This document shows, one piece after another, positions 38,118 to 39,273 of a stretch of 64,000 bases of DNA. Below the pieces are notes generated by a model, which saw nothing but the letters and a program-made list of their open reading frames with translations, searched no databases and was not told the DNA's origin. The stretch lies in contig WFNG01000055.1 of NCBI GenBank assembly GCA_015488735.1, positions 6,185 to 70,184 on the forward strand. The letters are read 5' to 3'. Origin of the DNA: Bacteroidales bacterium (GTDB taxonomy: Bacteria > Bacteroidota > Bacteroidia > Bacteroidales > F082). The position numbers were made by a program, and so were the translations under genes. Positions within the stretch are counted from its first letter, which is position 1, and every line of letters starts with the position of its first letter.

Positions 38118-38249
38118 ATTTTCTAAGGCTTTAATAACGCGGTGTAAAAGTAGGGAAATAGCGGAAATATCCAATACAGGTTAATAGCCGTTCACAGAAA
38201 ATCAGAAAAGCCTAAAATACTATGTTCTAATATTTTAGGCTTTTAAAAG

Positions 38250-38321
38250 TGATCCCGCCGGGATTCGAACCCGAATCATCAGAACCGGAATCTGACATTC
38301 TATCCGTTGAACTACGGGACC
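38250..38321 (-). tRNA. tRNA-Arg(CCG)
   Basis: Reverse complement GGTCCCGTAGTTCAACGGATAGAATGTCAGATTCCGGTTCTGATGATTCGGGTTCGAATCCCGGCGGGATCA; anticodon CCG. Confidence 0.95.
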
Positions 38322-38326
38322 GGTTT

Positions 38327-38361
38327 GGAATGAATAATGTTGAATGAATAATGTTGAATGA
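38327..38361. repeat. Array of five heptamers (TGAATGA alternating with ATAATGT)
   Basis: ggaatga ataatgt tgaatga ataatgt tgaatga. Confidence 0.85.
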
Positions 38362-38382
38362 AAGGCTCCTGCATAAATTGGC

Positions 38383-38739
38383 TTAAACTTTATTCCTTTG
38401 TGCTGTTTTTCTTGAAGCAATAAAAATTGAAGTTAACTCATGGGCTTCTTTCATTATCGAATTTATTTCTTCCTTTTTAAATAGATTGAATTCTAACGCA
38501 AAATCTAACCAAAACTCCGATTCATCAGCTTCCTCTATTACAATACTTAATTTTGCAATAAAAGCCGCTTTTGATTGGGCCAGTCTGGTTGCACGATAGT
38601 TGGCAGCAACCGAAGTGGAGCACCTGATTAGTTGTCCTTTAATGTGGCGGGAAAGATAAGAATCTTTCAGCTTTTCAGCGATATTTACACAGTTAATTGC
38701 AAATGCTTTTGTCCGGAATACAAGATTTTCCCCACTCAT
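38383..38739 (-). CDS. Four-helix-bundle protein (23S rRNA IVP / Avd-like family)
   Basis: L..RTKAFA, QLIRCSTSVAANYRA, S..AFIAKLSIVIEEADES.FWL, EA.EL..IF.AS. Confidence 0.92.
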   Translation of the reverse strand: MSGENLVFRTKAFAINCVNIAEKLKDSYLSRHIKGQLIRCSTSVAANYRATRLAQSKAAFIAKLSIVIEEADESEFWLDFALEFNLFKKEEINSIMKEAHELTSIFIASRKTAQRNKV

Positions 38740-38793
38740 AATTTTGTCATTTAAGAATTAATAATGATAAAATTATGAAAAATTCTTTATTCG

Positions 38794-38828
38794 ACACTCA
38801 TCATTCATCATTCATCACTCATCATTTA
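38794..38828. repeat. Array of five heptamers (TCATTCA consensus), inverted relative to 38327-38361
   Basis: acactca tcattca tcattca tcactca tcattta. Confidence 0.88.
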
Positions 38829-38833
38829 TTTCG

Positions 38834-39231
38834 TGGAGCTGGAGGGATTCGAACCCTCGTCCAAACATGGAACCAATAAGCCTTCTACATGCTTAGTTTG
38901 TCATTGGTTGTCGGGAAATACACGGGGACAAACACCCAAAATATTTCCTTAGCCTCTTAAATTTCATTTTGGCTGCGAGGCAATGCCAAAACTATTCTGA
39001 AGTTGCTTGCGACTCGTTATCAGGCCGGAATCAGAAATCTCCACCTGCGAGCCGTCTCGTCCCCCGTAACTTCGACGGAAGATAAAGCCAATCTACTAAA
39101 CTTCGATCAGGCTGCGAGAGCGTAATTAGGTTCGCCAAATAAAAAAATGTGTAACGCGGTTTTACGGGTTGTGTTACCTTGCCCGGCATGCTTACCTATC
39201 CATTCAAATGCTGTCAAAACCAGTCAGCCCC
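38834..39231 (-). ncRNA. ssrA: tmRNA; tag peptide (A)GEPNYALAA
   Basis: 5' GGGGCTGACTGGTTTTGAC, 3' GAGGGTTCGAATCCCTCCAGCTCCA; tag ORF ggc gaa cct aat tac gct ctc gca gcc tga at 39136-39107. Confidence 0.95.
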
Positions 39232-39265: not shown

Positions 39266-39273
39266 CAAAAGTA
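39266..39273 (-). promoter_or_regulatory. -7 promoter box for ssrA
   Basis: CAAAAGTA on + equals TACTTTTG on -. Confidence 0.6.

What the first reader, a model, noticed from the sequence alone, without database searches (positions are those of the whole stretch)
38322..38833. IVS-like element: four-helix-bundle gene bracketed by inverted heptamer arrays between tmRNA and tRNA-Arg
Seen: on the - strand the order is tmRNA 3' end, 5 nt, five heptamers (TGAATGA consensus), the ORF, five heptamers (TCATTCA alternating with ACATTAT), 5 nt, tRNA-Arg 5' end. The arrays are mutually complementary and can form an imperfect ~35-bp stem that loops out the gene. I see no terminator or TAnnTTTG box between the three genes, so one precursor is plausible. 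Established: PF05635/TIGR02436 proteins were first found in intervening sequences excised from 23S rRNA, and they share a fold with the RNA-binding DGR accessory protein Avd; their function is unknown. Inference: a self-contained intervening or mobile unit that sits in a stable-RNA precursor, is released by processing, and may spread through its heptamer arms without an encoded transposase. The precise symmetry makes this the strongest candidate for an undescribed system.
Basis: partly seen in the sequence, partly recalled or inferred. Interest (0 to 1): 0.82.

Follow-up and report, generated by a model that had tools for sequence, protein, structure and literature searches.

The report
IVS-like cassette in tmRNA–tRNA operon

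Summary
On the minus strand the order is a TAnnTTTG box, tmRNA, a 7-nt array, a 118-aa PF05635/TIGR02436 gene, a complementary 14-nt x2.5 array, tRNA-Arg(CCG) and an intrinsic terminator. No promoter box or terminator lies between the three genes. Fourteen orthologous loci keep this order and keep a stem that starts 0-12 nt after the tmRNA end and stops 1-12 nt before the tRNA, although the repeat sequence differs completely between species.

The feature belongs to the whole family. Of the 80 closest homologues, 71 upstream and 62 downstream flanks have 7- or 14-nt periodicity. Arms pair better within a locus than between loci (p=8e-9). Distant members (B. thetaiotaomicron BT_0352 type, Xanthomonas Xcc0516 type) have their own heptamer pairs. 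The genes sit between co-oriented operon partners (MoaE|MoaC, NuoF|NuoG, LeuC|LeuD, AccB|AccC, AraD|AraA).

The best reading is a promoterless cassette whose arms form a processing stem, probably cut by RNase III as in 23S IVSs. That stem would release tmRNA, the mRNA and tRNA from one precursor.

Recent mobility at this site is not supported. The locus is inherited vertically, with one secondary loss and one mosaic replacement. No RNA data could be obtained, so processing is inferred.

The parts
39266..39273 (-). Candidate Bacteroidota -7 promoter box (TACTTTTG, matches TAnnTTTG), about 35 nt upstream of the tmRNA 5' end
   Evidence: Regex scan. It is the only such box upstream of the unit, and none lies between the tmRNA 3' end and the tRNA. 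Function is inferred.
38833..39231 (-). tmRNA (ssrA), tag peptide GEPNYALAA, CCA not encoded
   Evidence: ARAGORN. Rfam RF00023, 144.6 bits. The last 35 nt are identical in all orthologous loci.
38786..38826 (-). Upstream arm: about 4.5 tandem heptamers (A/G)TGATGA plus GTGTCGAATAAA
   Evidence: TRF period 7, 4.1 copies, 38798-38826. Inverted-repeat pairs I1-I4. Paired in the MFE fold.
38736..38778 (-). Leader hairpin (UCAUAAUUUUAUCAUU / AAUGACAAAAUUAUGA) that includes the AUG of the ORF
   Evidence: Inverted repeat I11, 16 nt, 94% complementary. Present in the MFE folds of WIN, L001 and L002. Hairpins of different sequence occupy the same place in L007, L008, L043 and L092.
38383..38739 (-). 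118-aa four-helix-bundle protein gene (PF05635 / TIGR02436)
   Evidence: AF2 model with pLDDT 94.6 and four helices. Foldseek matches 2RLD (TM 0.86), 2GSC (0.82) and Avd 4DWL (0.75). dN/dS is 0.04-0.14 among orthologues where synonymous sites are not saturated.
38328..38362 (-). Downstream arm: TCATTCAACATTAT x2.5 (five heptamers), complementary to the upstream arm
   Evidence: TRF period 14, 2.5 copies, 100% match..
38249..38321 (-). tRNA-Arg (anticodon CCG), CCA not encoded
   Evidence: ARAGORN. Rfam RF00005.
38206..38244 (-). Intrinsic-terminator-like hairpin (17-bp stem) followed by a T-rich tail (CTGATTTTCT), 4 nt after the tRNA
   Evidence: A hairpin stands in the same position in 11 of 12 orthologous loci, each with a different sequence and most followed by a T-run.

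Best explanation
The region is one transcription unit: promoter, tmRNA, a four-helix-bundle (4HB) gene, tRNA-Arg(CCG), terminator. The 4HB gene is a promoterless cassette lodged in the spacer of a stable-RNA operon.

Its two flanking heptamer arrays pair in the precursor RNA. They form a long, interrupted duplex of about 22-30 bp in this window and up to about 75 predicted inter-arm pairs in relatives. The base of that duplex lies a few nucleotides from the tmRNA 3' end and the tRNA 5' end.

By analogy with 23S rRNA intervening sequences that carry the same protein family, and with rRNA-operon processing stems, this duplex is most likely cut by RNase III. The cut would separate the three RNAs. 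The tmRNA 3' trailer would then be trimmed and given CCA. The tRNA leader would be removed by RNase P. The looped-out 4HB mRNA would be released with base-paired ends, and a local hairpin over the AUG probably limits its translation.

The same architecture (a PF05635 gene between inverted, genome-specific heptamer arrays, co-oriented with both neighbours) recurs at intercistronic junctions of many operons. The arms are therefore best seen as the device that lets the cassette sit in a host transcript without breaking it.

What is shown: the anatomy, its conservation with complete turnover of arm sequence, its presence across the family, purifying selection on the protein, and vertical inheritance of this locus. 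What is inferred: co-transcription, RNase III cleavage, and what the protein does. The protein has an Avd-like fold and is probably pentameric and nucleic-acid binding.
For: Anatomy in the window.

Orthologous loci:
- 14 tmRNA-4HB-tRNA-Arg loci have different heptamers in each lineage (AUGAUGA, GGAUUUU, GAUGUGA, GAGUGUU and others). All pair with the opposite arm.
- The stem starts 0-12 nt after the tmRNA end (27 and 42 nt in two loci with expanded arrays) and ends 1-12 nt before the tRNA.
- A terminator hairpin follows the tRNA in 11 of 12 loci and never follows the tmRNA. Most other Bacteroidota tmRNA genes are followed directly by a hairpin, many with a T-run (read from the downstream sequences).

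Family-wide evidence:
- Lag 7 or 14 is the best periodicity in 71 of 80 upstream and 62 of 80 downstream flanks. Intergenic controls differ at p=2.5e-19 and 9.5e-14.
- Matched arms pair better than mismatched arms (p=8e-9) and better than flanks of other ORFs (p=3e-20).
- 50 of 71 loci have both neighbours co-oriented with the gene.
- Junctions are MoaE|MoaC, NuoF|NuoG and LeuC|LeuD-like; AraD|AraA, with (TTGACAA)n upstream and (TTGTCAA)n downstream; and AccB|AccC with GGGAATC/CATTCCC, MoxR|DUF58, and MacB-like|glycosyltransferase.

Protein: dN/dS is 0.04-0.14 in the pairs where synonymous sites are not saturated. The fold matches 2RLD, 2GSC and Avd.

Precedents in the literature:
- In the Coxiella 23S IVS, RNase III cuts at the first of three or four tandem GACAGAT heptamers upstream of the S23p ORF (PMC4990558).
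- In H. influenzae hmw1A, a transcribed (ATCTTTC)n array forms a long hairpin that RNase III processes (PMC12721329).

Strand: RNA duplex energy is slightly better on the sense strand than on the antisense strand (48 versus 30 loci, p=0.014).
Against: - There is no transcript evidence. No RNA run holds this organism or a close relative, and the B. thetaiotaomicron-type locus could not be sent to the read tools.
- The asymmetry between sense and antisense pairing is weak. It is absent in the gapless score (p=0.18) and is not significant within the tmRNA clade alone. Pairing at the DNA level is therefore not excluded.
- The stem in this window is rich in A-U and G-U pairs and is interrupted (two 11-bp blocks).
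- Arrays can occur without a partner or without the gene (L127, L139, L173). In L004 and L005, extra upstream repeats are left unpaired.
- The promoter scan covers only two consensus types. An internal promoter of another kind is possible.
- Why the repeat unit is 7 nt long is not explained.
Confidence: 0.6

Rival explanations
1. A DNA-level mobile element. The inverted heptamer arrays would be terminal inverted repeats or recombination sites, used by a factor supplied in trans or by the 4HB protein itself. The unit would move between genomic sites as DNA, like a MITE or a cassette.
For: - The same module is found in at least nine unrelated contexts and several phyla, with 57-70% protein identity.
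- The cassette in this window is a mosaic. Its interior is closer to the L001/L002 lineage, while the tmRNA, the ORF 3' end, the downstream arm and the tRNA are 91-100% identical to L003, L004 and L092.
- The gene has been lost within the clade (L127, L139).
- Pairing is about as good on either strand.
- PF05635 genes have been reported inside cas operons and at several rRNA insertion sites.
Against: - Proteins cluster by context, and all filled tmRNA loci form one tmRNA clade. Each insertion is therefore old and vertically inherited.
- Arm sequences differ between orthologues and follow the genome's own heptamer type. They are not carried along as fixed ends.
- No target-site duplication is visible. 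No transposase, integrase or reverse transcriptase lies within 6 kb.
- Arrays change copy number like simple-sequence repeats (L004 versus L005).
Confidence: 0.15
2. The stem is not cut. It acts as a clamp that loops the cassette out of the transcript. This would keep the 3' end of the upstream gene next to the 5' end of the downstream gene. The result would be preserved translational coupling or mRNA stability in operons and, in this window, correct folding of the tmRNA and tRNA acceptor ends. It would also limit expression of the 4HB gene.
For: [quoted passage not shown]
- A hairpin sequesters the AUG in the leader.
- The stem is interrupted and A-U rich, so it is not an ideal RNase III substrate.
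Against: - tmRNA and tRNA must be released from a common precursor in any case. A duplex of two or more helical turns next to them is the classical RNase III signal, as in rRNA operons and IVSs (established knowledge).
- RNase III cleavage has been shown for the Coxiella IVS and for the hmw1A heptamer hairpin.
Confidence: 0.15
3. The arrays are ordinary heptamer simple-sequence repeats with a regulatory role of their own. They could be binding sites for a translational regulator or could drive phase variation, as proposed for TAACTGA repeats. Their complementarity across the 4HB gene would be incidental.
For: - Heptamer arrays are common in Beggiatoaceae, Cyanobacteria, some Bacteroidetes and Xanthomonas, mostly just upstream of start codons (PMC4679880, PMC4692102).
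- Lone arrays exist in L173, L127 and L139.
- Copy number varies between near-identical loci.
Against: - Arms pair in a locus-specific way (matched versus mismatched, p=8e-9; versus other ORF flanks, p=3e-20).
- At least seven unrelated heptamer types are each matched by their complement on the far side of the gene.
- The stem boundaries track the mature RNA ends.
Confidence: 0.07
4. Chance low-complexity sequence in an AT-rich spacer.
For: The spacer is AT-rich. Short two-copy repeats are common in the window.
Against: The architecture is conserved in 14 orthologous loci and in distant subfamilies.
Confidence: 0.01

Closest known systems
23S rRNA intervening sequences (IVS) that carry an S23p / PF05635 ORF (Leptospira, Coxiella burnetii, Haemophilus and others)
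   Same: Same protein family. The ORF is looped out by complementary ends inside a stable-RNA precursor. In Coxiella, tandem heptamers (GACAGAT x3-4) lie at the 5' end and RNase III cuts at the first repeat (PMC4990558).
   Different: The unit is not inside an rRNA helix. It lies between two separate genes (tmRNA and tRNA), so excision separates two mature RNAs instead of fragmenting one. The ORF here is under strong purifying selection (dN/dS 0.04-0.14), whereas the Coxiella ORF is decaying and apparently untranslated. Both arms here are heptamer arrays.
Processing stems of rRNA operons (RNase III sites that bracket 16S and 23S rRNA)
   Same: A long-range duplex is formed by sequences flanking a large loop. 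Its base is close to mature RNA ends. The sequence is free to vary while the pairing is kept.
   Different: The loop is an mRNA for a small protein, not a stable RNA. The arms are tandem 7-nt repeats.
H. influenzae hmw1A 5'-UTR heptamer SSR hairpin (PMC12721329)
   Same: A transcribed heptamer array forms one arm of a long RNA hairpin that RNase III processes. The repeat number varies.
   Different: That hairpin is local, lies in a 5' UTR and controls a downstream adhesin. Its right arm is a G-rich stretch, not a second array. It does not enclose a gene.
Avd, the accessory protein of diversity-generating retroelements (PDB 4DWL; DGR RNP 8UB7)
   Same: Same four-helix-bundle fold (Foldseek TM 0.75). 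The family forms pentamers (2RLD and 2GSC each have five chains). Avd works on RNA together with a reverse transcriptase.
   Different: No reverse transcriptase and no template or variable repeats lie nearby. Sequence identity is only 11-14%. DGRs are not described as having flanking heptamer arrays.
Intergenic heptamer repeat arrays (TAACTGA in Beggiatoaceae, Cyanobacteria and Bacteroidetes; GGGAATC in Xanthomonas)
   Same: 7-nt tandem arrays, intergenic, next to start codons, with a genome-specific unit. The Xanthomonas-type 4HB gene in L208 is flanked by GGGAATC, the very unit reported as enriched in Xanthomonas.
   Different: Those papers describe direct repeats and do not link them to PF05635 genes or to an inverted partner array.
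MITEs and integron gene cassettes
   Same: A short, promoterless unit bounded by inverted repeats and expressed from host transcription.
   Different: The ends are not fixed in sequence. There is no target duplication and no attC-like single site. No recombinase is known. The loci are inherited vertically.

Membership tests
PF05635 / TIGR02436 four-helix-bundle protein (23S rRNA IVS protein, S23p) | Sequence match above the curated cut-off | tested here: met
   PF05635 scores 50.4 bits against a cut-off of 33.8. TIGR02436 scores 69.7 bits against a cut-off of 24.
PF05635 / TIGR02436 four-helix-bundle protein (23S rRNA IVS protein, S23p) | Four-helix-bundle fold like 2RLD and 2GSC | tested here: met
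   The AF2 model has pLDDT 94.6 and four helices. Foldseek gives TM 0.86 for 2RLD and TM 0.82 for 2GSC.
PF05635 / TIGR02436 four-helix-bundle protein (23S rRNA IVS protein, S23p) | Homopentameric ring | not tested
   Inferred only from the five chains in the 2RLD and 2GSC entries. No multimer model was made.
23S rRNA intervening sequence (IVS) | Inserted within a helix of the 23S (or 16S) rRNA gene | tested here: not met
   The unit lies between tmRNA and tRNA-Arg. There is no rRNA in the window.
23S rRNA intervening sequence (IVS) | Complementary ends form a stem that loops out the insert | tested here: met
   The stem is conserved in 14 orthologous loci.
23S rRNA intervening sequence (IVS) | Excised from the precursor by RNase III without re-ligation | not testable with these tools
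   No RNA data could be reached.
Diversity-generating retroelement (Avd as accessory gene) | Adjacent reverse transcriptase and a template/variable repeat pair | tested here: not met
   Pfam scan of ten ORFs within about 6 kb finds no RT. Repeat searches show only the heptamer arms.
Transposable element / MITE | Conserved terminal inverted repeats, target-site duplication, presence/absence polymorphism among close relatives | tested here: not met
   The arms differ between orthologues. No duplication is seen at the arm boundaries. The filled loci form one tmRNA clade.
Integrative element at the ssrA or tRNA 3' end | An integrase gene and a duplicated 3' segment of the tmRNA or tRNA | tested here: not met
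   No integrase is present. The only sequence shared by tmRNA and tRNA is the 13-nt T-arm (D6).
Heptamer simple-sequence-repeat arrays | Tandem 7-nt units with copy-number variation between close relatives | tested here: met
   TRF. L004 and L005 differ only in the upstream repeat number.

The most novel reading that the evidence does not exclude
PF05635 four-helix-bundle genes together with their inverted heptamer arrays form a widespread, so far undescribed class of promoterless 'hitch-hiker' cassettes. They settle between co-transcribed genes in stable-RNA and mRNA operons across many phyla. They remove themselves, or loop themselves out, at the RNA level through an RNase III-type stem. The classical 23S rRNA IVS would then be only the first-noticed special case. 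In the stronger form of this reading, the Avd-like pentamer acts on its own arm RNA or DNA, either to control processing or to promote rare spread. That would also tie the unexplained genome-specific heptamer repeats of Xanthomonas, Cyanobacteria, Beggiatoaceae and Bacteroidota to this protein family.
Probability: 0.35. Interest if true: 0.85.

Novelty: new variant of a known kind. Interest (0 to 1): 0.72.

Why it matters
The function of the IVS-encoded S23p / four-helix-bundle proteins has been open since 1993, and so has the reason for heptamer repeat arrays in bacterial genomes.

The gene comes with a bracket of complementary heptamer arrays almost everywhere. That holds in a tmRNA-tRNA operon, in 23S IVSs, and between subunit genes such as nuoF/nuoG, leuC/leuD, accB/accC and araD/araA. 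This links the two puzzles and makes them testable in tractable organisms. B. thetaiotaomicron BT_0352, for example, sits between araD and araA.

The finding also shows a tmRNA that is probably matured from a tricistronic precursor together with an mRNA and a tRNA. For annotation, it offers a simple signature for predicting RNA processing sites inside operons.

Tried and rejected
- RNA evidence was sought in four ways, all without result. A search for RNA runs holding the window found only 3% of words, from the conserved tmRNA end. Laying four metatranscriptomes on the window showed only the mature tmRNAs of other species. A search with L004 found only 4-5% of words.
- Laying DNA contigs of four metagenomes on the window to find an empty site gave no clean tmRNA-to-tRNA joint. 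It gave only diverged homologues and loose ends that again look like heptamer arrays.
- RNAduplex z-scores against mononucleotide shuffles were uninformative, because GU-rich and AC-rich shuffles still pair. They were replaced by matched-versus-mismatched and other-ORF controls.
- A consistent polarity (GT-rich upstream, AC-rich downstream) was considered as proof of an RNA-level constraint. It was rejected because one clade (L027, L056, L059, L076) has the opposite polarity.
- Sequence-specific binding of the arms by the protein was considered unlikely. Orthologues with 81-85% protein identity to the window protein (L001, L002) have unrelated heptamers.
- A defence-system or phage role was checked. 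PADLOC and PHROGs gave no hits, and only 3 relatives were found in IMG/VR.
- Rfam has no family for the spacer or for the 4HB-less spacers.
- Literature searches for PF05635, TIGR02436, S23p, heptamer plus four-helix bundle, and STRR found no paper that links the family to inverted heptamer arrays. Subscription journals are not covered.
Full report
1. What is in the window

On the minus strand ARAGORN and Rfam place a tmRNA at 39231..38833 and a tRNA-Arg(CCG) at 38321..38249. The 511-nt spacer holds one long ORF, 38739..38383, of 118 aa. It matches PF05635 at E=3e-13 and TIGR02436 'four helix bundle protein' at E=2e-19.

Tandem Repeats Finder reports a period-7 array of 4.1 copies at 38798-38826 and a perfect period-14 array of 2.5 copies, which is five heptamers, at 38328-38362. 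The two arrays are 74-81% Watson-Crick complementary over 26-35 nt.

In the MFE fold of the spacer RNA the arrays form two perfect 11-bp helices (GAUGAGUGAUG and GAUGAAUGAUG, each paired with CAUUAUUCAUU, with 2-3 G-U pairs each). A 3x3 internal loop separates the helices. The fold leaves 9 nt unpaired after the tmRNA and 7 nt before the tRNA. The whole fold has z=-3.1, and no shuffle folds as well.

A Bacteroidota-type TAnnTTTG box lies 35 nt upstream of the tmRNA. No such box lies in the spacer. The only terminator-like hairpin on this strand starts 4 nt after the tRNA.

2. The same locus in relatives

A scan of one genome per species found 347 relatives of the protein, and the best 80 were kept. 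Thirteen of those 80 keep the tmRNA and/or tRNA-Arg(CCG) neighbour: ten have both flanks (L001-L009, L047) and three are cut by a contig end (L039, L042, L043). Two further metagenome contigs (L092, L184) show the full order tmRNA - 4HB - tRNA-Arg(CCG).

The flanking arrays have a different sequence in almost every lineage. Examples are AAUGGNG in L001, GAGUGUU in L002, GGAUUUU in L007 and L008, and GAUGUGA in L047. The opposite arm carries the complement in each case.

In all 14 loci, co-folding the first and last 110 nt of the spacer pairs the arms. The stem starts 0-12 nt after the tmRNA 3' end (27 and 42 nt in L004 and L005, where the upstream array has expanded). It ends 1-12 nt before the tRNA 5' end.

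A hairpin follows the tRNA in 11 of 12 loci, each with a different sequence and most followed by a T-run. By contrast, most of 120 other Bacteroidota-type tmRNA genes are followed directly by a hairpin, many with a T-run (read from the downstream sequences printed). This is the pattern expected of a single transcription unit with a structure-selected processing stem.

3. Vertical inheritance, one loss, one mosaic

In a neighbour-joining tree of tmRNA sequences, all filled loci fall in one clade. L127 and L139 keep tmRNA - about 235 nt - tRNA-Arg, and they keep an AC-rich heptamer array before the tRNA, but they have no 4HB gene. They are nested inside that clade, so they represent a secondary loss.

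The 4HB proteins cluster by genomic context. The insertion here is therefore old and fixed, not a recent transposition.

The window's own unit is nevertheless a mosaic. Its tmRNA, the last ~65 nt of the ORF, the downstream arm and the tRNA are 91-100% identical to L003, L004 and L092. The leader and most of the ORF are closer to L001 and L002 (71-85%, against 23-76% for L003, L004 and L092). This indicates replacement of the cassette interior by recombination between lineages.

dN/dS among orthologues is 0.04-0.14 in the five pairs where it could be computed; synonymous sites were saturated in the other two. The protein is therefore functional, unlike the decaying S23p ORF of the Coxiella IVS.

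4. The bracket is a property of the family

Among the 80 closest homologues, lag 7 or 14 is the best periodicity in 71 upstream and 62 downstream 120-nt flanks. Mean lag-7 self-match is 0.69 upstream and 0.63 downstream, against 0.47 in 99 other intergenic segments of the same loci (p=2.5e-19 and 9.5e-14).

Arms of the same locus pair better than arms taken from different loci (31.3 versus 25.3, p=8e-9). They also pair better than the flanks of 263 other ORFs (22.0, p=3e-20).

Both neighbours are co-oriented with the gene in 50 of 71 loci. [quoted passage not shown] The junctions are often between subunits of one enzyme:
- MoaE|MoaC in about 29 Flavobacteriaceae.
- NuoF|NuoG in Gracilimonas and Balneola.
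- LeuC|LeuD-like.

Distant subfamilies behave the same way:
- The B. thetaiotaomicron BT_0352 type (PDB 2RLD, 31% identical to the window protein) lies between araD and araA. It has (TTGACAA)4-5 upstream and (TTGTCAA)4 downstream.
- A Xanthomonas Xcc0516-type gene lies between accB and accC, with GGGAATC x2 on one side and CATTCCC on the other.
- A Chryseobacterium gene lies between moxR and DUF58, with AGGTAG opposite CCACCTA.
- Another gene lies after a MacB-like gene, with GTAGAGY opposite CTCTACR.

The heptamer type is thus specific to the genome, and the inverted arrangement is constant. Within the Flavobacteriaceae clade, one lineage switched ATTG/CAAT to AATG/CATT on both arms.

5. The protein

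AlphaFold2 gives a confident four-helix bundle (pLDDT 94.6). Its best structural matches are 2RLD, 2GSC (Xcc0516) and the DGR accessory protein Avd, including Avd within the DGR ribonucleoprotein.

No reverse transcriptase, integrase or transposase lies within about 6 kb. The neighbours are housekeeping genes. PADLOC and PHROGs have no model for the protein.

Orthologues with 81-85% protein identity to the window protein (L001, L002) have unrelated heptamers. This argues against sequence-specific recognition of the arms by the protein.

6. Mechanism

The best-supported model is a promoterless cassette in a stable-RNA operon whose arms form an RNase III-type processing stem.

The shown steps are the anatomy, the conservation of structure with full turnover of sequence, the positions of the promoter box and the terminator, and the family-wide recurrence.

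The inferred steps are co-transcription, cleavage by RNase III, end trimming with CCA addition (neither gene encodes CCA), and translation of the released mRNA.

A conserved hairpin that contains the AUG suggests that translation is restrained.

Two experimental precedents support the cleavage step. RNase III excises the Coxiella IVS, cutting at the first of its tandem heptamers (PMC4990558). RNase III also processes the long hairpin formed by the transcribed heptamer array in the hmw1A 5' UTR of H. influenzae (PMC12721329).

Two weaknesses remain. No RNA data could be obtained. The strand asymmetry expected of RNA pairing is only weak (p=0.014 by duplex energy; not significant by the gapless score).

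Rival readings are given separately: DNA-level mobility, an uncut clamp that preserves coupling, and independent regulatory repeats.

7. Comparison with what is known, and novelty

The unit works like a 23S rRNA IVS and carries the same protein family. It fails the defining feature of an IVS, which is location inside an rRNA helix. It is not a DGR, a MITE or an integrative element.

Published work has noted the following:
- Heptamers in the Coxiella IVS.
- PF05635 genes inside cas operons and at several rRNA insertion sites in CPR bacteria.
- Genome-specific heptamer arrays in Beggiatoaceae, Cyanobacteria, Bacteroidetes and Xanthomonas.

In the searchable library I found no paper that connects these observations. 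None describes the inverted-array bracket as a family-wide feature, and none describes a tmRNA-4HB-tRNA operon.

I therefore rate this as a new variant of a known kind. It carries a substantial chance that the general pattern is a new class of RNA-excisable cassette.

Noticed in passing
window 38736-38778 (-): A 16-bp hairpin (94% complementary) in the leader pairs CAUAAUUUUAUCA with the stretch that contains the AUG of the 4HB ORF. It is conserved in L001 and L002. Hairpins of different sequence stand at the same place in L007, L008, L043 and L092. This may be translational control.
   Followed up: partly
window 38383-39231 compared with L001-L004 and L092: The window's unit is a mosaic. The tmRNA, the ORF 3' end, the downstream arm and the tRNA are 91-100% identical to L003, L004 and L092. 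The leader and most of the ORF are closer to L001 and L002. The breakpoints lie near the upstream arm and near ORF position ~390 of the spacer.
   Followed up: partly
L004 and L005, first 100-140 nt after the tmRNA: The two loci have an identical 4HB protein and downstream arm. Their upstream array has about 5 versus about 7 copies of a 15-nt double unit (GAATGATGAATGAAA). One arm therefore expands like a simple-sequence repeat and leaves unpaired repeats.
   Followed up: no
L127 and L139, spacer between tmRNA and tRNA-Arg (about 235 nt): These loci keep the tmRNA-tRNA-Arg linkage and an AATCACT-type array just before the tRNA, but the 4HB gene and the partner array are gone. The first ~112 nt after the tmRNA form a different hairpin (AATGAAAAATCC...GGATTTTTCATT). 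There is no Rfam match.
   Followed up: partly
L173, first 40 nt after the tmRNA: A lone GGATTGA heptamer array lies directly after a tmRNA and is followed by gyrB. There is no 4HB gene and no complementary array.
   Followed up: no
L047, upstream leader (about 200 nt within the 349-nt leader): An insertion with ~26-nt terminal inverted repeats (AATATAAAATATTGGAAACCAGAAAA ... TTTTCTGGTTTTCAATATTTTATATT) sits between the upstream arm and the ORF. It looks like a MITE nested in the cassette.
   Followed up: no
L184 (1180-nt metagenome contig): The 4HB match is split over two reading frames, which means either a pseudogene or a low-coverage sequencing error. The arms are long and almost perfectly complementary. 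If the disruption is real, the stem outlives the gene.
   Followed up: no
L208 1423-1844: In a Xanthomonas-type genome the 4HB gene between accB and accC is flanked by GGGAATC repeats. This is the heptamer reported in the literature as strongly enriched and quadruplex-forming in Xanthomonas (PMC4692102). This suggests that part of that repeat population belongs to such cassettes.
   Followed up: partly
L201 and L202 (IMG/VR contigs), 1300-1900: A 42%-identical 4HB gene lies between two large co-oriented genes on contigs classed as viral. Their translated ends made me think of a BREX-like defence operon, but this was not checked with any tool. The gene has a short GATTGAT/GGATTTT array upstream only.
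   Followed up: no
window 38249-38321 and 38833-39231: Neither the tmRNA nor the tRNA-Arg encodes its 3' CCA, here or in any orthologous locus. Both therefore need exact 3' trimming and CCA addition.
   Followed up: no
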